Origin: Opitutales bacterium
GTDB lineage: Bacteria > Verrucomicrobiota > Verrucomicrobiia > Opitutales > PNEW01
Direction of reading: 5' to 3'
DNA: 64,000 nucleotides
NCBI GenBank assembly: GCA_965197745.1
Contig: CBDANS010000006.1
Location: forward strand, 480,001 to 544,000
Shown one piece after another: positions 43,905-60,143 of this stretch. The notes below the pieces were generated by a model. That model searched no databases. It saw only the letters and a program-made list of their open reading frames with translations, and had not been told where the DNA came from. Numbering within the stretch: the first letter of the stretch is position 1; every line of letters begins with the position of its first letter. Made by a program: the position numbers and the translations under genes.

Positions 43905-43947
43905 TACCGAGGAGCTGAAAGCGACGACACTCAAGCGAAGCGAAGCC
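43905..43947 (+). repeat. 43-bp micro-insertion in the IS3 IDEYTRE motif
   Basis: TACCGAGGAGCTGAAAGCGACGACACTCAAGCGAAGCGAAGCC; also at 52672-52714. Confidence 0.85.
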
Positions 43948-44075
43948 ATATACGCGTGAATGTCTGGATATCCGGGTAGCTCGTCAACTCCCCTCATCGG
44001 ATGTCCTCTCTGTGCTTAGCGAGGCCATTGAAAAGGAGGGAGCTCCCAGCTATATCCGTAGTGACAACGGCAGTG

Positions 44076-44107
44076 TTCCGAGGAGCGAAGCGACGACATG
44101 CGAAGCC
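44076..44107 (+). repeat. 32-bp micro-insertion in the IS3 DNGSEF motif
   Basis: TTCCGAGGAGCGAAGCGACGACATGCGAAGCC; also at 52843-52874 and 59719-59750. Confidence 0.88.
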
Positions 44108-44494
44108 ATTCATTGCTCATCAAGTGCAGCAGTCGTTGTCCGACAAAAAGATCAAGGCGATATATATCGATCCGGGCAGTCCCTGGCAAAACGGTTTCAT
44201 CGAGTCGTTTCACAACCGCTTACGCGATGAGTGTTTGAACCGTGAAGTGTTGCTCAGCGTGGCTGAAGCACAAGTTGTAATCGAACAATGGCGCCAGACC
44301 TATAACCATGATCATCCCCACAGTCGATTAGGCTTTAAAAGCCCACAAGAGTTTGTCACATTCCTTTCAGATCCTGGCCGCGTTCGGGCTACGCCCTCAC
44401 TTCGCCAAGATCTCTCATATACATCAATCCTAAAACCATTAATACCCGGGAACTCTCTCACTTAATAATTGGTACGAAAAACGGGGTCCAATCA

Positions 44495-44607
44495 CAAGGA
44501 TTGAAAGTAACGATGGGCTCTATGTTAGTTTCTTTCGGCGTGAGCAGAAGAACAGAAGTAAAGCCTACAGAACTTTGAATAAAATCAAAGAATTCGCAGT
44601 CTGATTC
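44495..44607 (+). mobile_element. Element M4, right part only (left part replaced by IS3)
   Basis: CAAGGATTGAAAGTAACG...GAATTCGCAGTCTGA matches M1. Confidence 0.85.
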
Positions 44608-44665
44608 TTTACGTTTGACCCTAACCCGTGCGCGCACAAACTATATTGTGTGGGAAAGACAAAAT

Positions 44666-45766
44666 TTAGTCTCCCAAGTCAAAAGATGTTTTTAGCTTTT
44701 GCTCTCGTTCAAATCTCTCAATAGCTAGCTGAATAAGTCGATCGATAAGTTCGGTGTAGGATATACCGCTTTCTTGCCACAGGCGCGGATACATACTGAT
44801 TTTTGTGAACCCAGGGATCGTATTTATCTCACTCACAACAAGGTCGCCACTTTCCTTCAAGAAGAAGTCTACTCGACCCAATCCTTCACACTCCAATACC
44901 TGAAAAGTCTTAATTCCCAATTCTTGAATCTTTTTCTTCACTTCCCCCGAGACTTCTGCGGGTATTATTAAAGCCGCTCCATTTTCGTCGATATATTTTG
45001 CTTCGTATGAATAAAATTCATGACTGGTTAGGATCTCGCCAGGAATTGAGGCAATTGGATTTTCATTACCAAGCACGGAGCACTCTATCTCTCGACCGAC
45101 AATAGCTTCTTCTACAAGAATTTTTAAATCGTATTGGAAAGCATCAAAAATAGCTTTTTCAAATTCCTCCTTATCCTTCACTTTGCTCACCCCTACTGAA
45201 GAACCGAGGTTTGCGGGTTTGATAAACACAGGCATGCCGAGTTCCTCACTTACTTTCTCAAAGCTAACGTCGTCGTTTTTCTTAAAAACAAGAAACTTCG
45301 CTACCGGAATTCCAGCACCTCTTAAAAGACGCTTCATTATGTCCTTATCCATGCCGATCGCAGAACCCAACACGCTGGCTCCTACAAAAGGAATATTGGC
45401 AAGCTTGAGAAGTCCTTGCACTGTTCCGTCTTCGCCAAATGGTCCGTGGAGAATCGGAAAAATCACATCTATCAATGTATCTGCTCGGTGCGTAGTGAGA
45501 TTTGAAATCTGACCATCGCTTTGCGGAGTAAGTGCAACATTGTCATATGACTTGTTGAGTTTAATAAGTTTGGGGTTATCACTATTTAGTAAAGGATTTT
45601 GGGTCACGCCGAGGAGCCATCTGCCATTCTTGTTTATGCCAATTGGTACAACCTCATACTTTTCCTTATCAATCGCATCAATGACATTTTTTGCTGACTG
45701 CAAAGACACTTCGTGTTCTGCGGATTTGCCGCCAATAAGTATTCCAACTCGAATTTTCGTTTTCAT
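44666..45766 (-). CDS. ddl: D-alanine--D-alanine ligase
   Basis: GGKSAEHEVSL, LHGPFGEDG, KPANLGSSVG, FYSYEAKY, EINTIPGFT; ATG at 45766 chosen as start. Confidence 0.94.
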   Translation of the reverse strand: MKTKIRVGILIGGKSAEHEVSLQSAKNVIDAIDKEKYEVVPIGINKNGRWLLGVTQNPLLNSDNPKLIKLNKSYDNVALTPQSDGQISNLTTHRADTLIDVIFPILHGPFGEDGTVQGLLKLANIPFVGASVLGSAIGMDKDIMKRLLRGAGIPVAKFLVFKKNDDVSFEKVSEELGMPVFIKPANLGSSVGVSKVKDKEEFEKAIFDAFQYDLKILVEEAIVGREIECSVLGNENPIASIPGEILTSHEFYSYEAKYIDENGAALIIPAEVSGEVKKKIQELGIKTFQVLECEGLGRVDFFLKESGDLVVSEINTIPGFTKISMYPRLWQESGISYTELIDRLIQLAIERFEREQKLKTSFDLGD

Positions 45767-45901
45767 AAGTACTTGGTATTCAAAACTCAAATTTTAACAA
45801 AAGTTATAAAGCTGATAGAGCAATACCTCTACCTGCATAATACTTGAGAAATTTTAAAGTCGATAACTTGTGGTTTTCTTGGGTGTTCAGTTAGTTGATA
45901 A

Positions 45902-45992
45902 GGGGTCAGGCTCGGCATGTGAACTGTCGTCCCGCAGTTTCGGGACTCGGTACTGGCATTTTACTATTTTACCGGAATGCAGGGCCTGACCC
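45902..45992. repeat. REPIN-like element with GGGTCAGGC...GCCTGACCC termini
   Basis: ggggtcaggctcggcat ... atgcagggcctgaccc. Confidence 0.75.
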
Positions 45993-45999
45993 ATTTTAC

Positions 46000-46539
46000 T
46001 TATTTGTAATCTTCGCGCAATATAGAATACACAGCTAGATCTTCATATATTCCATCTTTAATTACCTGTTGTCTTAGCGTTCCCTCATACTTCATGCCAG
46101 ACTTAGACATAACACGACCAGATGCTGGATTTCTTGTGAAATGATGTGCGTGTATTTTGTTCAACTTAATTTTTTCAAATCCATATTGTATCAATGCAAT
46201 CGAAGCTTCAGTCCAATATCCTTTGTTCCAATATTTTCTGCCAATCCAATAACCCAATTCGGCCCGTCTGTGAGAATTATTTATACCTAAACTAATGCAA
46301 CCAATTAAACCGTCGTCTTTATTAGTTATAGCAAATGCAACGCCCTTACCGTTTGCACATTCTGTTTCCAGCATTCCGATCCATTGCTCAGCTATGCCAT
46401 CTTCATAAGGATGAGGAACAGTCAGTGTTGTTGACGCTATCTCTTTGTCTCCAGCTAATTCCTGCACTCGGTTAGCGTCGCTCAAAAGAAATGGTCGAAG
46501 AATCAACCTCGTTGTCTTCAGAATTGGTAAATTACTCAT
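46000..46539 (-). CDS. GNAT acetyltransferase, RimJ/RimL type
   Basis: LKTTRLILRP, AELGYWIG..YWNKGY.TEA, NPASGRV. Confidence 0.92.
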   Translation of the reverse strand: MSNLPILKTTRLILRPFLLSDANRVQELAGDKEIASTTLTVPHPYEDGIAEQWIGMLETECANGKGVAFAITNKDDGLIGCISLGINNSHRRAELGYWIGRKYWNKGYWTEASIALIQYGFEKIKLNKIHAHHFTRNPASGRVMSKSGMKYEGTLRQQVIKDGIYEDLAVYSILREDYK

Positions 46540-46592
46540 GAATTAAGTAACCTAAACTAACATACTGGCAGTTTAAGTATTTTTATTTGGAA

Positions 46593-46650
46593 GGGCTCAG
46601 GCTTCGCAACTCAACATTTTTATTTTTTGCTGAAATGCGAAGCCTGACTT
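46593..46650. repeat. REPIN-like element A1
   Basis: gggctcaggcttcgca ... tgcgaagcctgac; second copy at 50908-50964. Confidence 0.78.
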
Positions 46651-46674
46651 CTTTTGTCTTATTTAAAGTACTTT

Positions 46675-47286
46675 CTATAATGAAGAGCCTGGCCACTGCA
46701 CTCGCCAACACTCACCACTGACTGTGAGTACGAACGGCTTTGCGTGGGGAAGTGGCTTTCCCCACAATGCCGGGCCATTGTGGCAGAGGGTGCTAACGCC
46801 GACTGTCAGACTAGCTACATGACCGACTACGATAGCAAGACTATCGTGGCATCTCGCGCCGATCTCATTGAACACATTCTTCATGCGCAAAGTGACTTCA
46901 TGGCCGGTTTCCCCATCCGTGAGCCGAGCGCTCAGATTCCCATAAACTATCCATTGTCGAAGTATGTCAACTGCCAAGCCCGGTTTTCTCAGCTCGCGAT
47001 CGCTTCCCCCCATTAAGGCCTCGGCTAGGGCCGGGACAACTTCGATCTGCACCCCTAAATACGAAGCGATTATCGCTCCAGTCTGGCTTGAGCGAAGAGC
47101 CTCGCTGACAAAGACCTTCAGTGGCTTCTTCCTCAGCAACCGGTGAGCGGCTTCATTGGCCTGCCGGTGTCCTCGTTGAGTCAACGGAGGATCCAGTAGC
47201 ACGCTACCGCCTACGGTGCCGCGCGATGAATCCCGGATAGGAGGCTCGGACTCTGCGTGTCGGAGGCAAATCAGTTGGGCGTTCAC
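46675..47286 (-). CDS. Histidine phosphatase family protein
   Basis: LRHAES, LTQRGHRQA, S...RS.QT, GE, VVGH. Confidence 0.85.
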   Translation of the reverse strand: MNAQLICLRHAESEPPIRDSSRGTVGGSVLLDPPLTQRGHRQANEAAHRLLRKKPLKVFVSEALRSSQTGAIIASYLGVQIEVVPALAEALMGGSDRELRKPGLAVDILRQWIVYGNLSARLTDGETGHEVTLRMKNVFNEIGARCHDSLAIVVGHVASLTVGVSTLCHNGPALWGKPLPHAKPFVLTVSGECWRVQWPGSSL

Positions 47287-47433
47287 GCAATAGATCCCTT
47301 ACTCACGGAGCCGCTGTTACCGAGAACCTGAGATCGGCGGCTCGTGCTCCGAGATGTCAATGACCGCGGGGGTGTTGCCGGTGGCCTGTATTCCCTCGGC
47401 GGCGCGCTTGTCACGTTGGCCACGTCAACCTCG

Positions 47434-49002
47434 TTAGACTTCGTCTTTGCCCATTTGTTCAACAATGTACTCGGCTTGCCGGATAGCAAGAGTCACAATC
47501 GTTAACGTAGGGTTTTCTCCCCCTCCCGTAGTAAATTGGCTGCCATCCGAGATGAACAAATTAGCAATGTCGTGTGCCTGCCCCCATTTGTTCACCACAC
47601 CGTCGCTAGGCTTCTCGCTCATGCGATTAGTTCCCAGGTTATGGGTTGAGGGATAGGGTGGTGTCTCAATGGTGCGTATGGCGCCTACTGCTTCGTACAG
47701 CGCACAGCCCTGTTTATACGCATGGTTTCGCATAGCCAGGTCGTTGGCGTGATCGTCATAGTGGACGTTGGGGATAGGTAAACCAAACTGGTCTTTCTCG
47801 CTGGGGTGAAGCGTTATCCGATTGTTTTCCCGCGGCATATCCTCGCCGATTAACCATATCCCCGCCATGTGATCATACTGATCTATGAGCTCGGTGAACT
47901 CACGGCCCCATGCCCCAGGGTTAAGGAAAGCAGCCAAGAAGGGTAGACCCAGGGAGATGGTTTCGATGTGATACCCGCCCACAAAACCACGGGACGGATC
48001 ATTGCGGGATTCGTCCTCGACAATGCCGGCCATGGTTGTGCCGCGGTACATGTTGACCTCTTTGTCAAAGATGGCATAGACCGATCCGGTCATATGGCGC
48101 ATATAATTCCGCCCTACCTGTCCAGACGAGTTAGCTAGGCCATCCGGGAACTTATTCGAGGCAGAGTTGAGAAGCAGGCGAGGGCTTTCAATCGAGTTGC
48201 CAGCAACGCAAACCACACGGGCCTTCTGCTCAACCTGGTTACCGTCTTTGTCCGCATAGAGCACGCCAGAGACCTTACCCTGGTCGTTGTGAAGAATTTG
48301 CAGCGCTTGGCTCTGGGGCCGTAAATCGAGCTTGCCGGTGGATTCAGCCTTGGGAATTTCCGTATACAGGGTTGACCACTTGGCGCCCATCTTGCAGCCC
48401 TGGAAGCAGAAACCCAACTGCATACACGAGCTGCGTCCGTCACGCGGTTGAGAGTTAATGGCCATATTGCCGGTATGAACCTTTTTGTAACCCAGACGCT
48501 TGGCGCCAGCGGCCAATACCTTATAATTGTTACTGCCGGGTAAGCGGGGGATGCCATGGGTTCCGGTAACGCCCAGCTTATTCTCGGCTCGGTCATAATA
48601 GGGTTCCAGGTCAGCCAGACTGATGGGCCAGTCAAGCAAGGTTGCACCCGCGACGTTGCTATAAGCGGTCCGGGCTTTGAACTCATGTTCTTTAAAACGT
48701 AAGGAAGCGCCCGCCCAGTGAACCGTGGTTCCCCCAACGGCTTTGACAATCCAGGCTGGCAGGTTAGGAAAATCCTTGGCCACACGCCAGGAGCCCGAGG
48801 TTGTTCGCTTGTCAAGCCAGGCGGTCTTGTTAAACATCTGCCACTCGTCATTGTCAAAATCCTTTATTTCAATGCGCTTGCCCGCCTCAAGAAGAACTAC
48901 GTTGACCCCCTTCTGGCATAGCTCATTGGCTAGGGTCCCACCGCCAGCACCAGAGCCAATAATGACAACAACGCTGTCATCCTTAAGATCATATTGGGCC
49001 AT
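47434..49002 (-). CDS. GMC-family FAD oxidoreductase
   Basis: IIGSGAGGG, VGGTTVHW, HNLGTNRM, NPTLTI. Confidence 0.93.
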   Translation of the reverse strand: MAQYDLKDDSVVVIIGSGAGGGTLANELCQKGVNVVLLEAGKRIEIKDFDNDEWQMFNKTAWLDKRTTSGSWRVAKDFPNLPAWIVKAVGGTTVHWAGASLRFKEHEFKARTAYSNVAGATLLDWPISLADLEPYYDRAENKLGVTGTHGIPRLPGSNNYKVLAAGAKRLGYKKVHTGNMAINSQPRDGRSSCMQLGFCFQGCKMGAKWSTLYTEIPKAESTGKLDLRPQSQALQILHNDQGKVSGVLYADKDGNQVEQKARVVCVAGNSIESPRLLLNSASNKFPDGLANSSGQVGRNYMRHMTGSVYAIFDKEVNMYRGTTMAGIVEDESRNDPSRGFVGGYHIETISLGLPFLAAFLNPGAWGREFTELIDQYDHMAGIWLIGEDMPRENNRITLHPSEKDQFGLPIPNVHYDDHANDLAMRNHAYKQGCALYEAVGAIRTIETPPYPSTHNLGTNRMSEKPSDGVVNKWGQAHDIANLFISDGSQFTTGGGENPTLTIVTLAIRQAEYIVEQMGKDEV

Positions 49003-49016
49003 GGCTCACTCCCCTC

Positions 49017-49544
49017 CTATTCTTCTGGTAACCACCCTATATCGTTAAAACCGCGGTTAAAGTATCCGCCAAACTTCCACGAAGGACCCTCATAGCCAAA
49101 GTGCCGCCACACCAACGGTTGATTGTAGAGCCCGGTAATAATGGACCCCCGCACGGTCTGGAAAAACGGCGTGGTATCCATGCTTTGTAAAGCCTTGAGT
49201 TTGTAACCACCACTTATGTCCAACCACTTCACCTGGTATACGGAGTCCAGTGAGGCTACGCCGTTCTTCAGTAACTTGGCTAAATCAGGGTCGGCTTTTG
49301 CCTTCTCATCAAACCCCTCGACAATTTTGGCGTAGTAGGCGTCGCCAATTTCGTCGTGCGGGTAGAGGTAACGGCATACTGTTATCAGAGTGGCTGCGGT
49401 ATGCTTGTCCAGGGTTGTTGAGGGTATGGCCCAAGCCTTGCTGGGATCCAATAGCACCCCCGTACTGCCAGCAACAGCCGCGCCGGTGACAGCAAGACTA
49501 CTTGTCTGCAAAAATTGACGGCGATTCATGCCCTTCTTACTCAT
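49017..49544 (-). CDS. Tat-exported partner subunit (gluconate 2-dehydrogenase subunit 3-like)
   Basis: NRRQFL Tat motif; C-terminal VWRHFGYEG...GF.DI.WL; adjacent to the GMC gene. Confidence 0.82.
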   Translation of the reverse strand: MSKKGMNRRQFLQTSSLAVTGAAVAGSTGVLLDPSKAWAIPSTTLDKHTAATLITVCRYLYPHDEIGDAYYAKIVEGFDEKAKADPDLAKLLKNGVASLDSVYQVKWLDISGGYKLKALQSMDTTPFFQTVRGSIITGLYNQPLVWRHFGYEGPSWKFGGYFNRGFNDIGWLPEE

Positions 49545-49553
49545 TGATGAACC

Positions 49554-49666
49554 TGGTCGGACCTCGTTATTCGTACCAATTATTAAGTGAGAGAGTTACC
49601 GGGTGTTAATGGTTTTAGGATTGATGTATATGAGAGATATTGGCGAAGTGAAGGTGTAGCCCGAAC
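49554..49666 (-). mobile_element. Isolated right-end fragment of the IS3 element
   Basis: Reverse complement matches the last ~113 bp of 43145-44494. Confidence 0.85.
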
Positions 49667-49868
49667 TGTTGTAGAATTGCTCAATGTCTGAAATGTCGTC
49701 GCTCATGGATGTATTCAAATGCCAAGATATACCAACAGGCTTTTAAGATTGCCTACGCTACTTAGATATAAAGTCAAAAGGTTAAAATCGCAAATGCCCC
49801 TACAGCTTAGCATTGTCGAGCGTCAGATCGCGATGAGAGCGTTTTGATGGGTTGGGGCAGGAGTGACC

Positions 49869-50639
49869 TTAGAAATAGGTGTTAGTATCAAGTCCCATAT
49901 CACGATGCTGCTTCTTAGCGGCTTCAGCTTGTCGTCTCTTCGCTTCCTCGTCAACTCTACAACTCACGCCTTCGAAATTCATGGCAAAAGCTCGACGATG
50001 TCGGGTTGCTGAACGGTTCGGATCTGCACGGTGAATGATTTCTCCATGATGGACGACGGCATCACCCGGTTGCATTTGTACAACCACCTCCATCCCTTCA
50101 TCTTTAAGGCCGTAATCAGTGATGCCCTGAGAAAAACCAAGGATCGATGTCACTGCATGCGGTCGAATACCGAGAAGGTGAGAGCCGGGGATGTAGCGTA
50201 AACACCCATTCTCTTCTTCAACAGGGTCAATGGCCATCCAGACCGAAGCAACATTAGGGGGATTAAGCTTAAAATAATAGTTATCCTGATGAGGTGGTGT
50301 GCGATGATCTGTTTTTGGCGGTTTGTTAAACCACAAGGGTCCCTCCGTATGGGCTTCCTCACCAATCAAGGTACTGGCAAGTTTATTCCACTTGGAATGG
50401 CTCCGGTACTCCTCGAAGTACGGTTCAAATTTTGCCATGTGCTCCATTTGCTTCAGGGTCTCGGGCTGTGACTTGTCCTGGTAAAAGGCGACTGTGTCTG
50501 GAACTGATGGTACCACCTCGCGGATAAAGCGCTCGACAATCTCGAACAGCGGCTCGTATTCATCTGGCGAAAGAAAGTTTCGCACTACAGCAAATCCATC
50601 ACGATCGTAGTTCTCTTTATATTGCGTATAATCGTCCAT
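49869..50639 (-). CDS. Phytanoyl-CoA dioxygenase (PhyH) family protein
   Basis: TPPHQD, ENGCLRYIPGSH, HHGEIIHR...NRS...R. Confidence 0.92.
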   Translation of the reverse strand: MDDYTQYKENYDRDGFAVVRNFLSPDEYEPLFEIVERFIREVVPSVPDTVAFYQDKSQPETLKQMEHMAKFEPYFEEYRSHSKWNKLASTLIGEEAHTEGPLWFNKPPKTDHRTPPHQDNYYFKLNPPNVASVWMAIDPVEEENGCLRYIPGSHLLGIRPHAVTSILGFSQGITDYGLKDEGMEVVVQMQPGDAVVHHGEIIHRADPNRSATRHRRAFAMNFEGVSCRVDEEAKRRQAEAAKKQHRDMGLDTNTYF

Positions 50640-50818
50640 TTCTAGTCCTGCTTATTTTTATCAATCTTTAACTGCCAATAAGAAAGCCGGTATCCAGAGG
50701 TGGATCTCATAGCGCACAAAAATTAGAGTCAATAGTATTACCTCTACGCAGTGGAGGAGATTTTTCTCCGAGGGGAATCAGTATCAGTAATAGTCCTGGC
50801 AGAGGACAGTAATCTCGA

Positions 50819-50897
50819 GTGCCGCGCGATGAATCCCAGATAGGAGGCTCGGACTCTGCGTGTCGGAGGCAAATCAGTTGGGCGTTCACGCAATAGA
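50819..50897 (-). repeat. 79-bp duplicate of the 5' end of the histidine phosphatase gene (47216-47294)
   Basis: One mismatch in 79 bp by direct comparison. Confidence 0.9.
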
Positions 50898-50907
50898 GGA
50901 GTCTAAA

Positions 50908-51910: not shown

Positions 51911-53261
51911 TGGAGTGACCCCCAAAAATGGTATCATTAACAGAGAGAGGTTATCGGGATAAACAGATAACCTCAATGAAAAGAAAAAGATATACAACAG
52001 AACAGATCATAGCAATACTGCGGCAGCCCGATACGGGCAAAACCGTGCAGGAAGTCTGCCACGGCAACAACCTAAGTGAACAGACCTTCTATCGCTGGGG
52101 CAAAAAGTATGGCAACTTGGAGCTGGCTGATGCGAAGCGATTTAAAGAGCTGGAAAAGGAGAATACGGAGCTGAAGAAGATGCTCGCTGATCAAATGCTC
52201 AAGCTTCGGGTGTTGGAGGAAACGCTCTCAAAAAAATGGTGAGCCCAAAGCAGAAGAAGCGAGCAGTAAAAGATGCGGCTGAGAAGGGGCTGTGCTCGTT
52301 TTAGAGGGCTTGTGCTTATCTCAGCCTCAGTTGGTCAACGTACAGCTACCGACCCAAGCAGGCCAGTAAGAAGGCTCAGCAATTGGCCGAGCGGATTTTG
52401 ACCTTGTCCTGGGAACATCCCCGTTACGGTTACCGGCGCATTCGTGCCTTGCTGGTGAAAGAAGGTTGGGCGGCAAGCAGGAAATTTGTACAGGCAGTGC
52501 GACGTTCTTCGGGCTTACAGGTAAAGCCCCCGAAAAAGCGTAGACACCGTCAGGGGATCTCTACTGGGCTCCCTACTAAAGCAACCGGTCGCAATCACGT
52601 CTGGTCCTGGGACTTTGTCCATGATCGTACAGACAATGGCGGTATGCTAAAGATGATGACCTTGATCGATGTACCGAGGAGCTGAAAGCGACGACACTCA
52701 AGCGAAGCGAAGACATATACGCGTAAATGTTTACGCATCCGGGTAGCTCGACAGCTCACCTCAACCGATGTTCTCTCGGTACTCAGCGAAACCATCGATG
52801 AAGAGGGAGTTCCTAGCTATATCCGCAGTGACAACGGCAGTGTTCCGAGGAGCGAAGCGACGACATGCGAAGCCATTCATTGCTCATCAGGTGCAGCAGT
52901 GGTTGTCCGACAAAAAGATCAAGGCGATATATATCGATCCGGGCAGTCCCTGGCAAAACGGTTTCATCGAGTCGTTTCACAACCGCTTACGCGATGAGTG
53001 TTTGAACCGTGAAGTGTTGCTCAGCGTGGCTGAAGCACAAGTTGTAATAGAACAATGGCGTCAGACCTATAACAATGAACATCCCCACAGTCGATTAGGC
53101 TTTAAAAGCCCACAAGAGTTTGTCACATTCCTTTCCGCTCTTGGCCGCGTTCGGGCTACGCCCTCACTGCGCCAAGATCTCTCATATACATCAATCCTAA
53201 AACCATTAACACCCGGTAGTTCTCTCACTTAAAATTTGATACGAAATACGGGGTCCGATCA
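51911..53261 (+). mobile_element. IS3-family element copy 2 (both micro-insertions plus an early TAG in orfB)
   Basis: Same left end as copy 1; inserts at 52672-52714 and 52843-52874. Confidence 0.92.
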
Positions 53262-53348
53262 CTGGGTATTTCTCCGTTTAATGACTTATATCATTTTATA
53301 TTTATCAAGCAATATTCACGTAGCAAGTGAAAGCAGTTAGATCGAATT

Positions 53349-53768
53349 TTATAATACTTGGTCTTGTTTGTTAAAATCAAATGCCTTGATGATTCCAGGA
53401 TATAAATAATCCACAATATTCGGAAGATTTTCTCTTGAGAACCAGCAAGGGGTATGTTGTCCGAAATCATTATTTTCAGTTTTTAAAGTTCCAGACACTA
53501 TTCGGGCCAGATACATAAATGTTATACTGTGCCATGGTTCTTCGGGTCTAATGTTCTGGGCCACTTCAATTAATTTAAGCAATTCAATATCAAATCCAGT
53601 TTCTTCCCGAAATTCCCGGAAAGTTGCTTCTTCAATTGATTCCAGAAACTCTATTCCCCCACCGGGCAGATACCAATTAGTTAATTCCCCATTTTTATAA
53701 TGCGGAACTAACAATACCCTTTCATTTCGAAATACAACTGCACCTGTTCTCGTGTAAATTGTCTTCAC
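53349..53768 (-). CDS. NUDIX hydrolase
   Basis: PGGGIEFLESIEEATFREFREETG Nudix box. Confidence 0.92.
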   Translation of the reverse strand: MKTIYTRTGAVVFRNERVLLVPHYKNGELTNWYLPGGGIEFLESIEEATFREFREETGFDIELLKLIEVAQNIRPEEPWHSITFMYLARIVSGTLKTENNDFGQHTPCWFSRENLPNIVDYLYPGIIKAFDFNKQDQVL

Positions 53769-54190
53769 TGTTTATTTTCTGAAACGAACCATTCATAATT
53801 AGCAGTTGCTACTACAATTTTCTCTACATTCAATATTTCAATCTGAAATGCGATCAGTGCCCTCTTTTTCTTGAAATAGGTTTCATGAAACTTATCCCAA
53901 TCTTCTTTTTCGTAGACACCCTTTGCGTAGACTTGTCCCGTTGCTGGCTTCCGATACTTAATATCTGCCCGGCGTAGAATAGGTAATACCTTTTCTATAT
54001 CTACCTCCAGATTTCGAGAAAGGAATTCTCCACTGGAAGCTTCACCCAAACTATAAATGGCACTGGCATGGATTGTATCGACATGATTTAAATATTTTGG
54101 ATCTGCTGATAGCTGAAATATTCCATCAGTATTTTCTTCACACTTTTGTATTCCTATAATTCTGTTAAATGGCAATTGGGTGATGTCCAT
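53765..54190 (-). CDS. Hotdog-fold thioesterase-like protein
   Basis: NHVDTIHASAIYSLGEASSG, IKYRKPA. Confidence 0.8.
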   Translation of the reverse strand: MDITQLPFNRIIGIQKCEENTDGIFQLSADPKYLNHVDTIHASAIYSLGEASSGEFLSRNLEVDIEKVLPILRRADIKYRKPATGQVYAKGVYEKEDWDKFHETYFKKKRALIAFQIEILNVEKIVVATANYEWFVSENKQ

Positions 54191-54317
54191 TTTATTTCTC
54201 TATTATGGCTATCATTGAATCTCAGCAACTATTCTTGTATCTTTGATCTAAGCCTTACGAATGCCCATCGATTTAATATGCACTAAATTTTTATACCAGC
54301 AGTAAAGCTTCTCGAAA

Positions 54318-54998
54318 TTAAGAAAAGTATGCTGCCAATTCTCCTAAGTTGCCTACTTCCAGTGTTACTTTATCAGCATCTGTGCAGCTTATTACTCTAC
54401 CCTTTCGATTTATCCATATGCCGTCAATTCCGGCATTATAGGCGCCCAGTACGTCACTGGAAAAGGAATCTCCAATGTGTACTACCTCTTCTGCATCTAC
54501 GCCCATTAAGTCGAGCGCTTTTTCAAATATCTCTTTTCGCGGCTTGTAAGATCTGCAGTCTTCGCTCGTAACTACTGAATCGAAAGATAGACCCAGATTT
54601 CCCATCGCTGATAAAATGTCGTTTCGATCGATATTCGAAACGATGCATACAGGAATTGAAAGTGATTCCAGAAAATTCAACGTATCGCTAAATATTCTTG
54701 GATTTTCCCAGTAAGCGTACAATTCCGACGATAGCTGTTCAGCATCGAGGCTGACTTCGAACTTTTCCAGGAGATGCTCCAGGCTTTCACTCTCAAGCCT
54801 TCTTTGTGTTTTAAAGTTTTCGTTAGAAAATCGCTTACAAATTTCGGAAAAATTCCAATTTCTTCCTATTGCTTCCGTATCATTCGATAGGGGTGAAACG
54901 CTCGCAATACTTCGCACAATTCGATCGATGATCTCATCGTCCTCTTCCACAAGCGTTCCATAAAAATCCAGGAATATACATTGATAATTCTTAAGCAT
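54318..54998 (-). CDS. HAD-family hydrolase
   Basis: LDFYGTL, SN, YKP, IGDS..SDV.GA. Confidence 0.92.
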   Translation of the reverse strand: MLKNYQCIFLDFYGTLVEEDDEIIDRIVRSIASVSPLSNDTEAIGRNWNFSEICKRFSNENFKTQRRLESESLEHLLEKFEVSLDAEQLSSELYAYWENPRIFSDTLNFLESLSIPVCIVSNIDRNDILSAMGNLGLSFDSVVTSEDCRSYKPRKEIFEKALDLMGVDAEEVVHIGDSFSSDVLGAYNAGIDGIWINRKGRVISCTDADKVTLEVGNLGELAAYFS

Positions 54999-55734
54999 GC
55001 TCCCAAAGCCTTTTGTAGTGAATTGAACCTGCCCTTCTGTAATCCCTTATTAATTAACTCTATATACTAATATGTAGGCACTTATGAATCAATTTATCGC
55101 TTATGTCCAGAGAAACTAAATAGTAGTATATAGCGTGCAATAGCGAAAAGTGGGGAGCATTAGGGGAGCGGATGTCGCTCAATCTCAATATGTGTTATTA
55201 ACTGTAACAATCGGTAACTTCTGGATGTTAGTCCTAAATACAATGAAGATTCAATTTCAAGTTTAATTCACCGGTGCCCGAGCTCAAGAATTTGCATATA
55301 TAACTCTTAGTCTGAATTCTCAGTAGATAGCATTCTTATTTTATTTGTTTGTGACGGCTATCATCGCGGCCCGCTCTGTAATCTTATGGTGCGCATCACG
55401 TTTAGCACCGGCATTGTTCGCCTGCCTTGCGATCGGGGTAAAGCCCGTTTACCTGTACAACGAGTCTCGGCCGAACAGACTCCTAGACATGCTCTACTTA
55501 ATTCATCACATAAGACGAGGCAAATTAGTAAAACCCCAGCTTATCGGATCCCGTGTCCTGATTGGGCTAAAATCATCAAACCTCATCCAGAATATCTTCT
55601 CAAGTGACTCAGTTCCCGGGGTCACGACCAAACTAATAGCTAGCTGACACTTTATACTTCCCCAACGGATTATCTGTATGATCAAGTCGTAGTTATTACA
55701 TTTAAATTCTACGATTTACTTCTTCCTATAGTGG

Positions 55735-57432
55735 CTACTTCTTTTGATGCTTAGCCAGCCAGGTCTCAGCCCTGTGTTCCGCTTCAGTGATTTGCTCTTC
55801 AGTCATAGCTTTTTTGAGTATGTCTAAATGATTTTGGCTTGTGGGTTCACCTGCGATTGTGGCGAGGCTAATCCACGTATAAGCCCACACATAATCCTGC
55901 GATACCCCATCACCGTTAAAATACATCACACCAAGGTTCAACTGGGCAAGCGCATCTCCCTGCTCAGTTGCTTTGTGCGTCCACTCGAATGCCTTTGCGT
56001 AATCCTGCTCTACACTTTGGCTATAATACATTGCACCTAGATTGACTTGGGCGTGCGCGTGCCCCTGCTCAGCTGCTTTCTCATACCATTTTTGCGCCTT
56101 CTTTATATCCTGTTTGATCACTGAGCTCTGTTTATATACATGGCTTGAAGTATCTATATTACTCCGACTATATCCATAAAGATACCTGTATGGATCTCTG
56201 AAAGCCAACGAGTAGGGGGGATAGTTGTCATATCCCGTTAGCTTTCTTGGTCTCCCGGGAAAAGTTGATTGGTTATAAAGGTGATAAGATTTTATTTTTG
56301 CGCCTCTATCATATATCCTCCCAAGAGTATATTGGGCCTCAACGAATCCCTGTTCAGCTGCTTTTTTATACCAATGGAAAGCTTTCTTTACGTTTTGTCT
56401 GACTCCACGCCCATATTCTAACATCAATCCCAGCTGATATTGAGCATCAGCTAATCCTTGTTCGGCTTCCTTATGAATCCATTTTAATGCGCCCGTATGA
56501 CCCTGTTCGGCCGCTCTGGAATACCACTTTATTGCTCCGACACGATCCTTCATTACACCCTGTCCACGTTCATACATCCACCCAAGAGCAAATTGAGCTT
56601 CCAGGTAATCTAGCCCAGCAGCTTGGTTAATCCATTTGAATGCCACGGTGGAATCTTGCTCTACTCCTCGGCCCTCAGAGTATAATGCCCCAAGGTAGTA
56701 TTGAGCTCCTATGTGCCCCTGTTCAGCCGCCTTGCGATACCACTTTAATGCTTCAGAATTATTCTGTTTTACCCCCTCCCCCTTATTATACAGCATAGCA
56801 AGTCTGTATTGCGCTTTTGTGTGTTCTCGATCAGCAGCCTTACGAAACCAATCGAAAGCCTGTATAGTATCTTTTTCGGTTCCCTGCCCATTGTAATACA
56901 TCAACCCAAGATTGTATTGGGCACTGACCTCTCCTCTTCCAGCTGCTTTACGATATAAATTGAGCGTTTCGGTCTGTGCTTGTTCAGCTGCCTTGTTAAC
57001 AGACTTTAATACCCCGGTATCATGCTGCACCTCCTTTTCTCTATGATATATCGTCATACTAAGCTGGCGAAGGTGGATTCTTGCTTGGCGGTGACCTTTT
57101 GAAGCTGCCCTTTGATACCACTTGCGCGCCTCAGTCACATCCTGCTTAACCCCTCTACCTCTTTCATGCATGAAACCCATGTTGTATAGGGCTTGGGTAT
57201 GTCCCTGTTCGGCTGCTTTTTGATACCACTTGTGTGCCTTGGCATAGTCCCGCACTTGACCTCCCCTTTCATAAACCAGTCCTAGATCAAATTGCGCTTC
57301 AGCATCTCCATTTTCAGCCCGCGCTTTTAATTCTGATAGCTGGCCATCCTCTGTCCCCCATGCAAAGCTGACTAAGAATAAGAAAACGATCAACGATCCC
57401 CAAGACTTCATTCCAAAAATTAAATTAACCAT
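55735..57432 (-). CDS. Sel1-like repeat exported protein
   Basis: Repeated AQY.LG.MY..G.GV..D...A..WY.KAAEQG units; signal peptide. Confidence 0.93.
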   Translation of the reverse strand: MVNLIFGMKSWGSLIVFLFLVSFAWGTEDGQLSELKARAENGDAEAQFDLGLVYERGGQVRDYAKAHKWYQKAAEQGHTQALYNMGFMHERGRGVKQDVTEARKWYQRAASKGHRQARIHLRQLSMTIYHREKEVQHDTGVLKSVNKAAEQAQTETLNLYRKAAGRGEVSAQYNLGLMYYNGQGTEKDTIQAFDWFRKAADREHTKAQYRLAMLYNKGEGVKQNNSEALKWYRKAAEQGHIGAQYYLGALYSEGRGVEQDSTVAFKWINQAAGLDYLEAQFALGWMYERGQGVMKDRVGAIKWYSRAAEQGHTGALKWIHKEAEQGLADAQYQLGLMLEYGRGVRQNVKKAFHWYKKAAEQGFVEAQYTLGRIYDRGAKIKSYHLYNQSTFPGRPRKLTGYDNYPPYSLAFRDPYRYLYGYSRSNIDTSSHVYKQSSVIKQDIKKAQKWYEKAAEQGHAHAQVNLGAMYYSQSVEQDYAKAFEWTHKATEQGDALAQLNLGVMYFNGDGVSQDYVWAYTWISLATIAGEPTSQNHLDILKKAMTEEQITEAEHRAETWLAKHQKK

Positions 57433-57496
57433 CTAACTAAGGCAATCGCCAGGGGAGTAATTATTAAGAGAATTATATATAAAAGTAGTTATGGGT

Positions 57497-58055
57497 GTGC
57501 CCTGATCCCGTAAAACCGGGGTCAAAGATTCAGTCTGACAGGGGTGGGTAACCTAATAAAGAATAGTCGAAAGAAAACCCCATGAACAGCAAGACATAAC
57601 GGTATAAGAAAGAACCCATGATCTATGCTTTAAGGCCGGTTTAAAGCGGACGAAGGATTGCCGAAGCTTGCCGGGTAAAGGCGAGTCTCACTATCGGTGA
57701 TGCAGCACCCCTGAAGCGCTGGTCGACACCTCCATCGGTGGGAGCAAAGTTGCCACCGCACTTGGGGCCTCTGAAGGAATCGGTCTTGCCCAAAACATGA
57801 CCGTAGAAAATAGCTATATTGAGGGTTTCAATGGACGCTTATGTGATGAACTTTCTAACACCGAGATATTTTAACGCTGACTGAAGTGAAAGTAAACTTG
57901 AAGGTCTGGCGGCTTGATTATAATTCTCAAAGACCCCACATATCTCTGAGCTATCGGTCTGCAGCCGAATACGCCCAGAGAGCCGTTTCTAAGCAAATCA
58001 ACACTTACCACCCTGCGCCGGATCTAACACTGGCGTAATCGGTTACAGGGCACGT
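57497..58055 (+). mobile_element. Highly degenerate IS3-family remnant
   Basis: GTGCCCTG...CAGGGCAC ends; ENSYIEGFNGRLCDE and WRLDYNSQRPH.SL fragments with stops and frameshifts. Confidence 0.65.
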
Positions 58056-58238
58056 GTTATTTGGAAAGAGGAATGGGTATCTGATAATGCAATGTTGACT
58101 ATCATGCTTAATCAATTCTTACCTCGAGCTTCCACGAACTGACATTTTCAAAAGGGGTTTTGAAGGGGTGCTCTAAAGCGACAACCATGGGCTCGAATAT
58201 GGCGATGGTTGCCTCATCCGTTCATTCTTTAATTTATT

Positions 58239-58778
58239 TCATTTTATTTGTTCGAGGTCAGGCGAGATCAACCGCTTATTTTGCTTTATCCAATTGTGCA
58301 AAGTTGCTCTGGAGACACCTAAGTTTTTTGCCAGTTTGATGACAGGCAAACCGCGATTGAGTTCTTCTTTTATGTAAGCAACTTCTATATCCAGCTTGCT
58401 TCTACCGCGGGGTCTACCACGACGTTCTGGTTTGCCCTTATGGAATGCAGAAAATTTCTCGAACAGGTCACCAAGATACGGTGAGTCTACGTCCCGATTC
58501 AGCACGATTGAATCGTCTACAGATTGCAACGGAATCCTATTTTCCCAGAGCAGGTACAGCGTATTTGTGATTTCTGATAAGGTTTCACCCAACACTGTGA
58601 TACGTGAGACCACGATTCCCTCGATCATGTCTAGTTTAATCTTGCTCTTTAATTCGTGGACAGACATAAAAGAGTCTATATCAAAATCACTCTTGTTGAT
58701 TGTTCTTGCTTGGCTAGATTCCTGATCATTAGTGGTTTTTTGAATTAACCCGTAAATCTTTTTTCTTTGTCGTTCCAT
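58239..58778 (-). CDS. Degenerate serine-resolvase-like protein with C-terminal HTH
   Basis: IYGLIQKTTNDQ, IVVSRITVLG, GRPRG, LAKNLGVSRATLHNW. Confidence 0.65.
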   Translation of the reverse strand: MERQRKKIYGLIQKTTNDQESSQARTINKSDFDIDSFMSVHELKSKIKLDMIEGIVVSRITVLGETLSEITNTLYLLWENRIPLQSVDDSIVLNRDVDSPYLGDLFEKFSAFHKGKPERRGRPRGRSKLDIEVAYIKEELNRGLPVIKLAKNLGVSRATLHNWIKQNKRLISPDLEQIK

Positions 58779-59085
58779 TTTTAATTAGTCTTTAATGATT
58801 AAAATATAACAAAACTCTTTTAAAATAAACATAACTGTCAATTATAAAAAAATATATTAAAATAGACAACAGTCCCGCTACTAACCCTTACCTGTACACC
58901 CCATCAAGAGAGAGGGCGTATGCGCTTCTGCGCATTGCAACAGCAAGACGCTCGCAGGCGGCAACGAACATACAGGAGGGTCGAGGTTGCTTTATTCTGG
59001 GATTTACAACTTTCAGCTATTTCTTTGTAGATTACATCTGGTTTCCACGAAGTTTTGATTAGTGGAAATGCTGTGACCGTCAGTG

Positions 59086-60143
59086 CGGTTAAAGCGGATG
59101 CTGGCGGACAAGCTGCTGGGGATAGAGATTCTGCAGGAGACCCTCGAAAAAAAACGGTAAGCCCTGGGCACAAGCGGCAAGTGGCAGAGAGACTTGTGGC
59201 CCGGGGCCAGTGTTCGATGCGTGGAGCGTGCCGATACTTTCACCTGCACCGCTCCACCTATGCGTATCGGGCGAAGTATCCGGATGCCTGGCTAACGAAA
59301 CTGAAGGCGGCAGTAAGGCGGTTATCACGGCAATACGCGAGGTGGGGCTATCCGAAGATCACGAAGCTGTTGAAAGACGAAGGCTGGGAGGTGGGTAAAC
59401 GTCTCGTGCAACGTCTACGACGCGAACTGGCCCTGGCGATCCCCCCACGCAAGCCAAGACGTCGGCGCAGGGGTGTTTCCACCGGGCTGCCGACCAAGGC
59501 CGAACATCCCGACCCTGTTTGGACCTGGGATTTTATCCACGACAAAACGGTCCGCGGTGGCAGTTTAAAAATGTTGACCATGCTCGATGAGTACACCCGC
59601 GAGTATCGAGTGATCCATGTTGATCGCCATATCAATGCGGAAACGGTGCGCGGTATCATGCAAAAACTGCTCGACCCTCATGGGCCGCCACAATATATTC
59701 GCAGCGACAACGGTTCCGTTCCGAGGAGCGAAGCGACGACATGCAAAGCCATTCATTGAAAAGGAATTGAGAGCCTGGCTAACTGCGATGAAAATCAAAA
59801 CCCTCTATATCGAACCAGGAAGCCCTTGGCAGAACGGATACATCGAATCGTTGCATGCCCGTTTTCGCGAGGAGTGTTTAAACCGTGAACAGCTATGGAC
59901 TTTGACCGAAGCCCGCGTGGTGATCGAGGACTGGCGCTGGCTTTACAATAATGTCCGACCCCACCGCAGCCTCGGCAATATCACCCCACGGTGCTTCGCT
60001 GAAGACATTAATACCGAAGGCTTGGGCTCCATTCGGGCTACGCCCTCATTGCGCCCAAGCCTTGACTTCCTCTACCAACTTAACTTCAACATTAACCTCT
60101 CCAGACTAACTCTCTCGGTGGACCAGTTTACGTAACCCGATCA
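59086..60143 (+). mobile_element. Divergent IS3-family element, 5'-truncated, with the 32-bp micro-insertion at 59719-59750
   Basis: orfA tail RLKRMLADKLL...LEKKR, A-run slippery site, WTWDF, LDEYTRE, SDNG, PWQNGYIES; ends ...CCCGATCA. Confidence 0.88.

What the first reader, a model, noticed from the sequence alone, without database searches (positions are those of the whole stretch)
43905..59750. Mini-hairpin micro-insertions at homologous conserved-motif codons of three IS3 transposases, across two lineages
Seen: a 32-bp insert (TTCCGAGGAGCGAAGCGACGACATGCGAAGCC) splits the codon after D-N-G-S in IS3 copy 1 (44076-44107), copy 2 (52843-52874) and a clearly divergent IS3 (59719-59750, one substitution). 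A related 43-bp insert splits the codon after I-D in copies 1 and 2 (43905-43947, 52672-52714); that site is empty (GAT GAG TAC) in the third element. The junction is always G[insert]AT, so either one A of a Glu GAA codon was replaced or 31/42 bp were cleanly inserted into GCA/GTA. The 128 nt between the inserts differ at about 24 positions between copies 1 and 2 (manual count), roughly half synonymous, while the inserts differ at 1/43 and 0/32. Known: DNG contains the second catalytic Asp of the DDE triad, and d(GCGAAGC) is an exceptionally stable ssDNA mini-hairpin, a motif that recurs in these inserts. Inference: either a tiny site-specific mobile element that repeatedly hits and inactivates IS3 transposases, or a conserved intervening sequence removed or bypassed during expression. 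The long insert is in frame, with AGC-TGA...AGC resembling take-off and landing codons.
Basis: partly seen in the sequence, partly recalled or inferred. Interest (0 to 1): 0.87.

Follow-up and report, generated by a model that had tools for sequence, protein, structure and literature searches.

The report
Tiny hairpin inserts splitting transposase genes
Short DNA modules of 31 to 44 bases, related to the hairpin pieces found with small GIY-YIG nuclease cassettes at tRNA genes, have been inserted repeatedly at the same few codons of IS3 transposase genes in this marine bacterium and break those genes; they are DNA insertions, not introns.

Summary

They are DNA-level insertions that are present in some copies and absent in others:
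- Of 79 IS3 copies in the genome, four codon sites are occupied or empty in many combinations.
- Four empty copies are otherwise identical to nine occupied ones.
- A sister genome carries the same IS uninterrupted.
- RNA-library contigs keep the inserts. The only insert-free form reads GAG, which no single cut-and-join could produce.

Splicing or ribosome bypass is therefore not supported. The "tiny site-specific mobile element" reading is supported.

The module also interrupts the T-loop or D-loop (TCG^AAT) of disabled tRNA copies beside real tRNA genes, in Opitutales and other phyla. In a sister genome that tRNA copy closes a cassette whose only gene is a 93-aa GIY-YIG nuclease.

The closest published system is Ssn nucleases with NTS/SRM hairpin repeats. 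This scan has already noted such double-hairpin/GIY-YIG/tRNA cassettes on other DNA. What is new here is the repeated hitting of conserved IS3 transposase codons.

The enzyme and the mechanism of spread (nuclease-driven homing versus plain gene conversion) remain inferred.

The parts
43145..44494 (+). IS3-family element, copy 1 ('c1' lineage, 1350 bp, ends TG..CA), orfA plus orfB split by two inserts
   Evidence: Boundaries from blastn against the genome and from loose ends of contigs at 43145 and 44495. Reading frames. Ten copies are at least 98.7% identical.
43905..43947 (+). Long insert (type B, 43 nt as drawn; net +42) at site 1, after L-I-D; in frame but with TGA
   Evidence: Empty c-like copies read GAT GAA TAT here (7 of 7 rows). 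A contig of DNA run X1 also shows the empty form.
44076..44107 (+). Short insert (type A, 32 nt as drawn; net +31, frameshift) at site 2, after S-D-N-G-S
   Evidence: Empty c-like copies read AGT GAG TTC.
44181..44194 (+). Site 3 (S-P-W|Q|N-G), empty in this copy; carries a 43-nt open in-frame insert in 10 of 37 c-family copies
44223..44234 (+). Site 5 (R-D|E|C-L-N, GAG), empty in this copy; carries a 37-nt replacement (net +35) in 9 of 37 c-family copies
   Evidence: An RNA-library contig of X20 and a loose end of X1 show the occupied form at this place.
51911..53261 (+). IS3-family element, copy 2 ('c2' lineage, 1351 bp), both inserts plus an in-frame stop in the orfB N-terminal part
   Evidence: Fifteen copies are at least 97% identical.
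52672..52714 (+). Long insert (type B) at site 1 of copy 2
   Evidence: It differs from copy 1 at 1 of 43 positions.
52843..52874 (+). Short insert (type A) at site 2 of copy 2
   Evidence: It differs from copy 1 at 0 of 32 positions.
59085..60143 (+). 5'-truncated copy of a second IS3 family ('e3'; full length 1318-1320 bp with insert, 1289 bp without)
   Evidence: The N-terminal part of its transposase is 44% identical to that of copy 1.
59586..59594 (+). Site 1 of e3, empty (GAT GAG TAC)
   Evidence: In the e3 family 38 copies are empty, 1 is occupied and 3 are unclear, of 42.
59719..59750 (+). Short insert (type A, G-to-A variant) at site 2 of e3
   Evidence: In the e3 family 37 of 42 copies are occupied and 5 are empty.
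49559..49666 (-). 108-nt fragment of the right end of a c1-type IS (solo end)
   Evidence: C6:529559-529666, 93.5% identical. DNA contigs join IS ends to about 49550-49576. This is not part of the inserts.

Best explanation
The inserts are copies of a tiny gene-less DNA module of 31-44 nt. It has a GA-rich first hairpin, CCGAGGAGC-loop-GCGACGAC, followed by GCGAAGC. It belongs to the hairpin-repeat families that accompany small stand-alone GIY-YIG nuclease genes. Its usual place is a loop (TCG^AAT) of a disabled tRNA copy lying next to an intact tRNA gene, at the end of a GIY-YIG cassette. In this genome and its close relatives the module has entered IS3 transposase genes at a few N-G|A-R|T sites, mostly Glu codons of conserved motifs. 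It replaces the two bases A-R by T(T/A)CC...CA and breaks the reading frame or adds a stop. It stays in the DNA and in the transcript, so an occupied copy encodes no full-length transposase. Shown: DNA-level presence and absence among near-identical IS copies, independent occupancy of four sites, the link to tRNA look-alikes, and adjacency to a GIY-YIG gene in two genomes. Inferred: empty sites are cut by a trans-acting nuclease of this kind and repaired from an occupied paralogue (homing with a very short conversion tract), which would explain near-complete sweeps through 19-24 copies per lineage. Also inferred: the two replaced bases reflect the 2-nt staggered cut known for GIY-YIG homing endonucleases (recalled, not tested). 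Once present, the 32-nt identity acts as a recombination point between otherwise divergent IS families.
For: Presence and absence. In 79 IS3 copies of at least 1000 nt, the c family (37 copies) has site 1 at 29 O/6 E/2 unclear (O = occupied, E = empty), site 2 at 34 O/3 E, site 3 at 10 O/25 E/2 unclear and site 5 at 9 O/26 E/2 unclear. The e3 family (42 copies) has 1/38/3, 37/5, 1/41 and 0/40/2. The patterns OOEE, OOOO, EEOO, EOEO, EOOE and EEEE all occur.

Recent events. Four empty e3 copies sit at zero branch length among nine occupied ones. The 13 copies differ only by polymorphisms shared by both states, the insert, and G-AG-TTT against G-[31]-CA-TTC.

Sister genomes. G060 has at least 10 e3 copies with open frames of 385-492 aa and GAG TTT at site 2. 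It also has c-like copies with type B but an empty site 2.

Not ancestral. c1 and e3 are 44% identical in protein, and 57/120 and 81/120 identical in the flanking DNA, but 31/32 in the insert. c1 against c2 gives dN/dS 0.17, and the long insert differs at 1/43 inside flanks that differ at 6-10 per 50 nt.

RNA. Contigs of RNA libraries X20 and X21 span both c1 inserts without a gap. The e3 joint carries 'AG', which is an empty GAG allele.

Family link. Of 117 relaxed core matches in the genome, 114 lie in IS3 genes and 3 in tRNA-Asn/Gln 3'-end look-alikes, GGTTCG[..]ATCC. At the tRNA-Asn locus G083 is empty, G000 and G032 hold mini copies, and G060 holds two cassettes of a 93-aa GIY-YIG gene (PF01541, E 4e-16) plus a tRNA look-alike with the module in its T-loop. 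L013 shows the module in the D-loop of tRNA-Ser pseudo-copies with a GIY-YIG gene downstream. Of 13 such loci, 11 hold a real tRNA gene. The site-3 insert and the core resemble the repeats that form the inverted ends of GIY-YIG elements in this genome. The module pattern and small GIY-YIG genes are found together in G000, G032 and G060, and neither was found in G083, G094 or G136.

Chimeras. IS chimeras joined exactly at the insert occur in both directions.
Against: No test here links any nuclease to the module. Only 1 of 51 loci from other genomes has a GIY-YIG ORF within 600 nt, and the tRNA-Asn/Gln look-alikes of this genome have none. The co-occurrence table has six related genomes only. 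Each site carries its own sequence variant (types A, B, site 3, site 5). That fits single insertions followed by copying among homologous sites at least as well as a freely transposing element. The TTT-to-TTC change next to the insert and the c1/c2 breakpoint at the short insert are marks of ordinary recombination. How 19 or more near-identical occupied copies arose is open: a sweep after amplification, or mobilisation of broken copies in trans. No insert-free c-family copy exists in the genome (0 of 37). Nearest-neighbour folding does not support hairpins (z +1.1 to +2.0). One compensatory change (GAGC..GC to GAAC..GT in the site-5 type) is the only pairing evidence. The RNA evidence is assembled contigs from another study with a small share of the words (0.13 and 0.08); DNA may be present in such libraries.
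Confidence: 0.6

Rival explanations
1. There is no dedicated mobility. Each insert type arose once by some rare accident. It then spread among IS3 paralogues only by ordinary ectopic gene conversion and recombination, and by transposition of the IS copies that carry it.
For: Each site has its own variant. A flanking base change travels with the insert. Recombination breakpoints and chimeras lie at the insert. High copy numbers are explained by IS amplification.
Against: Type A is identical in two IS families with 44% protein identity and 48-68% identity in flanking DNA, and lineage-specific bases abut the insert on both sides. Unbiased conversion should remove inserts as often as it adds them, yet 34 of 37 and 37 of 42 site-2 positions are filled. 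The same module has entered at least five IS3 sites, tRNA loops, and IS elements of other genera (L024, L043), so de novo insertion recurs.
Confidence: 0.2
2. The inserts are intervening sequences that are removed from the mRNA or hopped over by the ribosome, so occupied copies still make transposase.
For: All copies of three abundant lineages carry them, the frames are otherwise open, and dN/dS between c1 and c2 is 0.17.
Against: RNA-library contigs retain both c1 inserts. The insert-free e3 form has GAG and cannot come from one excision. Net lengths of +31, +35 and +42 follow no rule. Empty alleles exist in the DNA. c2 has a further stop. Old copies pile up to four inserts and decay. No Rfam family matches.
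Confidence: 0.04
3. The module is moved by the genome's single IS200-like Y1 (RAYT-type) transposase, as REP/REPIN elements are thought to be, not by a GIY-YIG nuclease.
For: There is one PF01797 gene in the genome, with homologues in G032, G060 and G136. REP-like small hairpins and single-strand chemistry would suit a module without inverted ends or target duplication.
Against: No module copies are seen in the 1.4 kb around the gene. G136 has the gene but no module matches. The module's conserved neighbours are tRNA pieces and GIY-YIG genes.
Confidence: 0.08
4. The host uses the module and its nuclease as a defence that disables IS3 transposase genes, so the system is domesticated rather than selfish.
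For: 114 of 117 matches lie in IS3 genes, at conserved motif codons. No c-family copy is left intact.
Against: The module's wider home is tRNA look-alikes in several phyla. Broken IS copies are still very numerous. The restriction to IS genes may only reflect that hits elsewhere are lost by selection.
Confidence: 0.08

Closest known systems
Ssn single-domain GIY-YIG ssDNA nucleases with NTS/SRM hairpin repeats (Chenal et al. 2025, PMC11893778; I read Results parts 1-2 and passages of the Discussion)
   Same: Both have short oriented hairpin repeats in many copies and a roughly 94-aa stand-alone GIY-YIG gene flanked by the repeats, an arrangement the authors call IS-like. In this genome, GIY-YIG genes of 97 aa lie between inverted ends, TTGTCATTGCGAGGAG.. 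and ..CTCCTCGCAATGACAA, whose layout resembles the printed NTS consensus. The core of the IS3 inserts matches the inner part of these repeats.
   Different: The IS3 inserts lack the outer GTCATT...AATC arms of NTS/SRM. The paper describes intergenic repeats that modulate transformation. The terms tRNA, MITE and selfish do not occur in its main text, and its uses of 'insertion' that I saw concern IS elements. I did not read its supplements.
tRNA-linked mini GIY-YIG cassettes with a double hairpin in a loop of a disabled tRNA copy
   Same: In both, the module sits in a T-loop or D-loop of a partial tRNA copy beside an intact tRNA, with a small GIY-YIG gene in the cassette. Solo modules occur inside protein genes.
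   Different: Here the solo modules sit in IS3 transposase genes, mostly out of frame, at four or five recurrent codons. Occupied and empty states occur among identical copies. The module sequence is a GA-rich non-palindromic type, not a GC-rich perfect palindrome.
REP/REPIN elements with RAYT (PMC3116915, passages read) and very small dispersed repeats of cyanobacteria (Elhai et al. 2008; recalled, paper not held)
   Same: Both are very small gene-less repeats that spread within a genome and depend on a trans-acting enzyme or an unknown mechanism.
   Different: REPs are extragenic and tied to a Y1 transposase. No such tie is seen here.
Homing of group I introns and inteins into conserved codons, and programmed bypass (T4 gene 60, yeast mitochondrial byp elements; recalled)
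   Same: Conserved active-site-proximal codons are targeted. Spread to homologous empty sites comes with short co-conversion. Inserts of 30-50 nt interrupt a frame.
   Different: There is no ribozyme, no encoded protein, and no evidence of removal from RNA or of bypass.

Membership tests
Ssn / NTS-SRM hairpin repeat system | Repeat with the conserved outer arms of the NTS/SRM consensus (..GTCATT-stem-loop-stem-AATC..) as printed in PMC11893778 | tested here: not met
   The IS3 inserts start T(T/A)CCGAGGAGC and end GCGAAGC(N)CCA, with no such arms. The genome's intergenic repeats and the ends of its GIY-YIG elements do have them.
Ssn / NTS-SRM hairpin repeat system | A small single-domain GIY-YIG gene flanked by the repeats, in a genome rich in them | tested here: inconclusive
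   This is met for the related intergenic repeat family (PF01541 domain shown for the G060 protein; a PDB relative of the G000 protein is the UPF0213 protein 1zg2). For the IS3-type module itself a GIY-YIG gene is adjacent only in G060 and L013, and in 1 of 51 other loci.
Ssn / NTS-SRM hairpin repeat system | Sequence-specific binding and cutting of single-stranded DNA next to the repeat | not testable with these tools
   This needs a biochemical assay.
tRNA-linked GIY-YIG cassette with loop double hairpin (class noted by this scan) | Module inside a loop of a partial tRNA copy lying next to an intact tRNA gene | tested here: met
   tRNA-Asn and tRNA-Gln loci of G000; tRNA-Asn loci of G032 and G060; L013 D-loop; 11 of 13 loci hold a tRNA gene.
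tRNA-linked GIY-YIG cassette with loop double hairpin (class noted by this scan) | Two hairpins formed by the module | tested here: inconclusive
   Canonical folding is weak (-0.2 to -3.2 kcal/mol, z +1.1 to +2.0). The stems would need sheared G.A pairs (recalled chemistry). One compensatory G-C to A-T change is seen.
MITE (miniature inverted-repeat transposable element) | Terminal inverted repeats and a target-site duplication | tested here: not met
   Junctions are G[T..CA]T with two target bases lost and no duplication. The ends are not inverted repeats.
REP/REPIN with RAYT | Repeats flank a single-copy Y1 transposase gene and co-occur with it | tested here: not met
   The Y1 gene is present, but there are no modules in its flanks. 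G136 has the gene and 0 module matches.
Self-splicing intron or known structured RNA | Match to a curated RNA family or ribozyme core | tested here: not met
   Rfam 15 at E up to 1 gave nothing in window 43000-60500. In the tRNA look-alike loci it gave only tRNAs, a sub-threshold RtT match (23.7 against 45 bits) and one other sub-threshold match.
Programmed translational bypass | Insert kept in the mRNA but skipped, giving a full-length protein | not testable with these tools
   Retention in RNA-library contigs is compatible. No protein data are available, and the lengths and extra stops argue against it.

The most novel reading that the evidence does not exclude
A gene-less micro-element of about 32 nt homes into conserved catalytic-motif codons of IS3 transposase genes, because a trans-acting tRNA-loop-specific mini GIY-YIG nuclease also cuts loop-like sequences there (GGTTCCG|AG|TTC against GGTTCG|AA|TCC). 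It would be a parasite of a parasite that silences whole IS families, and the smallest homing element known.
Probability: 0.2. Interest if true: 0.85.

Novelty: new variant of a known kind. Interest (0 to 1): 0.62.

Why it matters
If the nuclease link holds, this would show that mobile DNA can shrink to about 30 bases and still reach specific sites, using an enzyme encoded elsewhere. It would also show that such modules can knock out entire families of insertion sequences and stitch unrelated IS lineages together through a shared 32-nt patch. That bears on how genomes of symbionts crowded with IS elements are kept in check. It also bears on annotation, because most IS3 'pseudogenes' here are broken by the same module. 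Finally, it bears on the biology of the recently described Ssn nucleases, whose natural role outside Neisseria is unknown. It offers a defined test: a short target, a short module and candidate enzymes of about 90 residues.

Tried and rejected
- **Rfam.** Scans of the region and of the tRNA look-alike loci found no family for the module.
- **Folding.** Standard DNA folding of four inserts and two reverse strands gave weak structures, no better than shuffles. The hairpins are therefore not demonstrated.
- **A GAA-only target (G^AAT).** I dropped this idea. Empty site-2 codons read GAG in 15 rows from 12 other genomes, with one GGG, and in G060 c-like copies. Site-1 empties do read GAA (7 of 7).
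- **Splicing.** No single contiguous removal from the occupied e3 sequence gives the GAG seen in RNA-library contigs.
- **RNA runs.** X20 and X21 hold only 0.13 and 0.08 of the sampled words. Stretches without cover tell nothing.
- **RAYT link.** No module copies lie around the Y1 gene.
- **GIY-YIG proximity.** Only 1 of 51 loci from the genome-contig scan has a GIY-YIG ORF in its 600-nt flanks.
- **NCBIfam.** It gave only sub-threshold hits for two of the three small nucleases and none for the third.
- **Earlier findings.** Look-ups by sequence found nothing.
- **Literature.** No paper holds the 15-nt core string or its complement, and nothing relevant turned up for GCGAAGC plus transposase, for GIY-YIG plus palindromic/tRNA/repeat terms, or for GIY-YIG plus T-loop terms. 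Elhai et al. 2008 is not held.

Full report
**1.

The 32-nt string occurs at 44076-44107 and 52843-52874 (identical) and at 59719-59750 (one change); none was expected by chance. The 43-nt inserts lie at 43905-43947 and 52672-52714, and the third element reads GAT GAG TAC at that site. Between the inserts, copies 1 and 2 differ at 24 of 128 positions. The inserts themselves differ at 1 of 43 and 0 of 32.

The three hosts are IS3-family elements:
- c1 (43145-44494) and c2 (51911-53261) are about 90% identical to each other.
- e3 (59085-60143) is a 5'-truncated copy of a second family whose full length is 1318-1320 bp.
- The transposase N-terminal parts of c1 and e3 are 44% identical.

One caution concerns the c1/c2 comparison. 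They are almost identical from the short insert onward (0-3 differences per 50 nt, against 5-13 upstream), so a recombination boundary lies at or just before that insert.

**2. The inserts are DNA insertions, present in some copies and absent in others**

The window lies in a 4.45-Mb assembly of 7 contigs. Earlier notes of this scan call it an uncultured Opitutales bacterium, and the record titles of its closest matches agree.

A strict core pattern matches 103 times. A relaxed one matches 117 times, 114 of them inside IS3 transposase genes and 3 in tRNA look-alikes.

I found two further recurrent sites:
- After S-P-W there is a 43-nt insert that is open and in frame.
- At the Glu of R-D-E-C-L-N there is a 37-nt replacement, net +35.

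Among 79 IS3 copies of at least 1000 nt, occupancy is as follows:

| Family | Site 1 | Site 2 | Site 3 | Site 5 |
|---|---|---|---|---|
| c (37 copies) | 29 occupied, 6 empty, 2 unclear | 34 occupied, 3 empty | 10 occupied, 25 empty, 2 unclear | 9 occupied, 26 empty, 2 unclear |
| e3 (42 copies) | 1 occupied, 38 empty, 3 unclear | 37 occupied, 5 empty | 1 occupied, 41 empty | 0 occupied, 40 empty, 2 unclear |

The sites vary independently: the patterns OOEE, OOOO, EEOO, EOEO, EOOE and EEEE all occur. No c-family copy is free of inserts.

In a tree of 48 e3-family copies with the insert masked, the four empty copies of this genome sit at zero distance among nine occupied ones. Those 13 copies differ only by a few polymorphisms found in both states, the insert itself, and G-AG-TTT against G-[31 nt]-CA-TTC. 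Gain or loss is therefore very recent. Because both haplotypes occur in both states, it happened more than once or was followed by recombination.

**3. Related genomes show that the empty state is the older one**

The e3-type protein was found in 18 of 151 sampled Opitutales genomes, counting this one. In sister genome G060, at least ten near-identical e3 copies have open frames of 385-492 aa and read GGT TCC GAG TTT at site 2. One other G060 lineage is occupied.

Every uninterrupted site of this kind that I saw in 12 other genomes reads GAG (15 rows, two of them the same place); one reads GGG. G060 also has c-like copies with the long insert but an empty site 2, AGT GAG TTC. Its pattern counts (about 45 long-type and about 12 short-type cores among 60 matches, my tally of the rows) show that the two sites fill independently.

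The e3 copies of G000 and G060 are far closer to each other than either is to the c family. Yet the G000 e3 insert is identical to the c insert. The insert therefore cannot be an inherited part of the IS3 ancestor. Beside the insert, c1 and e3 share 57 of 120 bases upstream and 81 of 120 downstream, against 31 of 32 within it. c1 and c2 diverged under purifying selection (dN/dS 0.17, dS 0.34), which also fits inserts younger than that divergence.

**4. No sign of removal from RNA**

One run search gave 22 runs, two of them RNA libraries with small shares. I laid these two and two DNA runs on 43000-60200; all four are assembled contigs.
- RNA-library contigs span the short insert of c1 (44003-44187) and the long one (43825-44058) without a gap.
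- At e3, one contig in each RNA library joins 59718 to 59752 with the letters AG between. This reads GGT TCC GAG TTC. No single contiguous deletion of the occupied sequence can give it, so it is an empty allele of a relative, not a spliced product.
- The DNA runs show no such joint at 95% likeness. One X1 contig shows the empty site 1 (GAT GAA TAT) of a c2-like copy.
- Contigs cannot show absence, and DNA can be present in RNA libraries, so this is evidence against splicing but not proof.

Other points against expression through the inserts: net lengths of +31, +35 and +42 follow no frame rule, c2 has another stop in orfB, and old copies collect up to four inserts.

**5. What the module is**

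Its core is T(T/A)CCGAGGAGC, a variable loop of 2-7 nt, GCGACGACA, a short variable stretch, GCGAAGC and a few bases ending CA. It has no inverted ends and makes no target duplication. Two target bases (A-R after a G and before a T) are replaced.

The three copies outside IS3 genes interrupt the T-loop of partial tRNA 3' ends just downstream of tRNA-Asn and tRNA-Gln, as GGTTCG[..]ATCC followed by the acceptor strand and CCA.

- Puniceicoccaceae, Coraliomargarita, Pelagicoccus, Cerasicoccus and Ruficoccus;
- Woeseiaceae, Gemmatimonadales, Thermoanaerobaculia and Myxococcales records, though two or three of these may be chance matches inside genes.

Many of these copies lie in TCG^AAT of T-loop-like sequences, in either orientation. 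Two lie in IS3-type genes of other genera (L043 at D-N-G-P|E|F, L024 after E-D-W-R-W). Of 13 such loci, 11 hold a real tRNA gene.

**6. The link to small GIY-YIG nucleases**

The tRNA-Asn locus differs among relatives:
- It is empty in G083.
- It holds one or two mini look-alikes in G032 and G000.
- In G060 it holds two tandem cassettes. Each is a 93-aa GIY-YIG gene (PF01541, E 4e-16) followed by a tRNA-Asn look-alike with the module in its T-loop.

In L013 the module sits in the D-loop (GGTCG[..]ATGG) of 5' pseudo-copies of tRNA-Ser, and a GIY-YIG gene follows the tRNA.

G000 itself has eight small GIY-YIG ORF pieces:
- Two identical intact genes lie between inverted ends, TTGTCATTGCGAGGAG... 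and ...CTCCTCGCAATGACAA.
- One broken gene lies in a cassette that duplicates the 5' half of a tRNA with anticodon CAT.

Those ends belong to an intergenic repeat family with 73 blastn rows for one 200-nt member. Its inner part (GCGAGGAGC-AAC-GCGACGC, then TACCGAGCGAAGCGACA) resembles the core and the site-3 insert.

With one query each, the module and the small GIY-YIG genes were found in G000, G032 and G060, and not in G083, G094 or G136. These are six related genomes, so this is weak support.

**7. Comparison with what is known**

The closest published system is the Ssn family: 94-aa single-domain GIY-YIG nucleases that bind an oriented hairpin repeat (NTS/SRM) in single-stranded DNA and cut a few bases upstream. 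Their genes are often flanked by the repeats, an architecture the authors liken to an insertion sequence (PMC11893778; Results parts 1-2 and Discussion passages read).

The G000 elements fit that picture. The IS3 inserts are only an inner piece of such repeats and fail the repeat's defining arms.

Notes of this scan on other genomes describe the same wider class: double-hairpin modules in loops of disabled tRNA copies beside mini GIY-YIG genes, and solo modules inside protein genes. Those notes are unchecked leads. Two of the ones I drew on are marked as partly fallen. I reached the G060 cassette independently before reading them.

My searches found no paper on the tRNA-linked form or on modules inside transposase genes.

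**8. How it most likely works, and what is open**

Shown:
- a DNA-level module that comes and goes at fixed sites;
- its tie to tRNA loops;
- adjacency to GIY-YIG genes in two genomes;
- recombination at the module, seen as chimeras of e3 and c halves joined at the insert in both directions.

Inferred: a trans-acting nuclease cuts empty sites, which are then repaired from an occupied paralogue. The conversion tract in the 13-copy group is at most about 58 nt. It takes in TTT to TTC at +5 but not the differences at -14 and +13.

The e3 site GGTTCCG|AG|TTC resembles the T-loop GGTTCG|AA|TCC. That suggests how a tRNA-loop enzyme could have reached a transposase gene.

Plain gene conversion without any drive remains a serious rival. 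I could not decide how the occupied lineages reached 19-24 copies. The c and e3 inverted ends differ, and the only insert-free e3 copies carry an orfA-orfB fusion by frameshift.

Noticed in passing
window 52300-52310 (copy 2): The c2 copy in the window has an in-frame stop in the N-terminal part of orfB that c1 lacks, yet the lineage has 15 near-identical copies. It may be a non-autonomous lineage.
   Followed up: partly
G000 C7:1541750-1542450 and C7:1545450-1546150: Two identical mini elements: a 97-aa GIY-YIG gene between inverted ends, TTGTCATTGCGAGGAG.. and ..CTCCTCGCAATGACAA. Gene-less relatives of the ends are scattered through the genome (73 blastn rows for one member).
   Followed up: partly
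G000 C7:1845950-1846650 (minus strand): A broken GIY-YIG gene lies between a duplicated 5' half of a tRNA with anticodon CAT, which ends in the anticodon loop, and the intact tRNA.
   Followed up: no
G000 C7:1901266-1902552 and three sister copies: The insert-free e3 copies read as one 415-aa frame, because a small frameshift fuses the start of orfA to the orfB frame and skips the leucine-zipper part.
   Followed up: no
G000 C6:163380-163706 (L054): A single-copy IS200-like Y1 (PF01797) gene of 198 aa, with homologues in G032, G060 and G136. No module repeats were seen in its flanks.
   Followed up: partly
window 44494-51911 and 49550-49576: DNA contigs of runs X1 and X3 join the right end of c1 to the left end of c2, or to a solo IS end at about 49560. 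This points to IS-mediated rearrangements among strains in those samples.
   Followed up: no
L095 (G060:C1:398457-401544): The tRNA-Asn look-alike of the G060 cassette also has its anticodon stem replaced by an AT-looped hairpin (TCCCGAC..GTCGGGA), a second interruption besides the T-loop module.
   Followed up: no
L003, L015, L016, L018, L039, L041, L044, L053 (one Opitutales MAG): Intergenic elements made of three module-like units in a row, ending ..ACATAACA. These are a compound form of the same building block.
   Followed up: no
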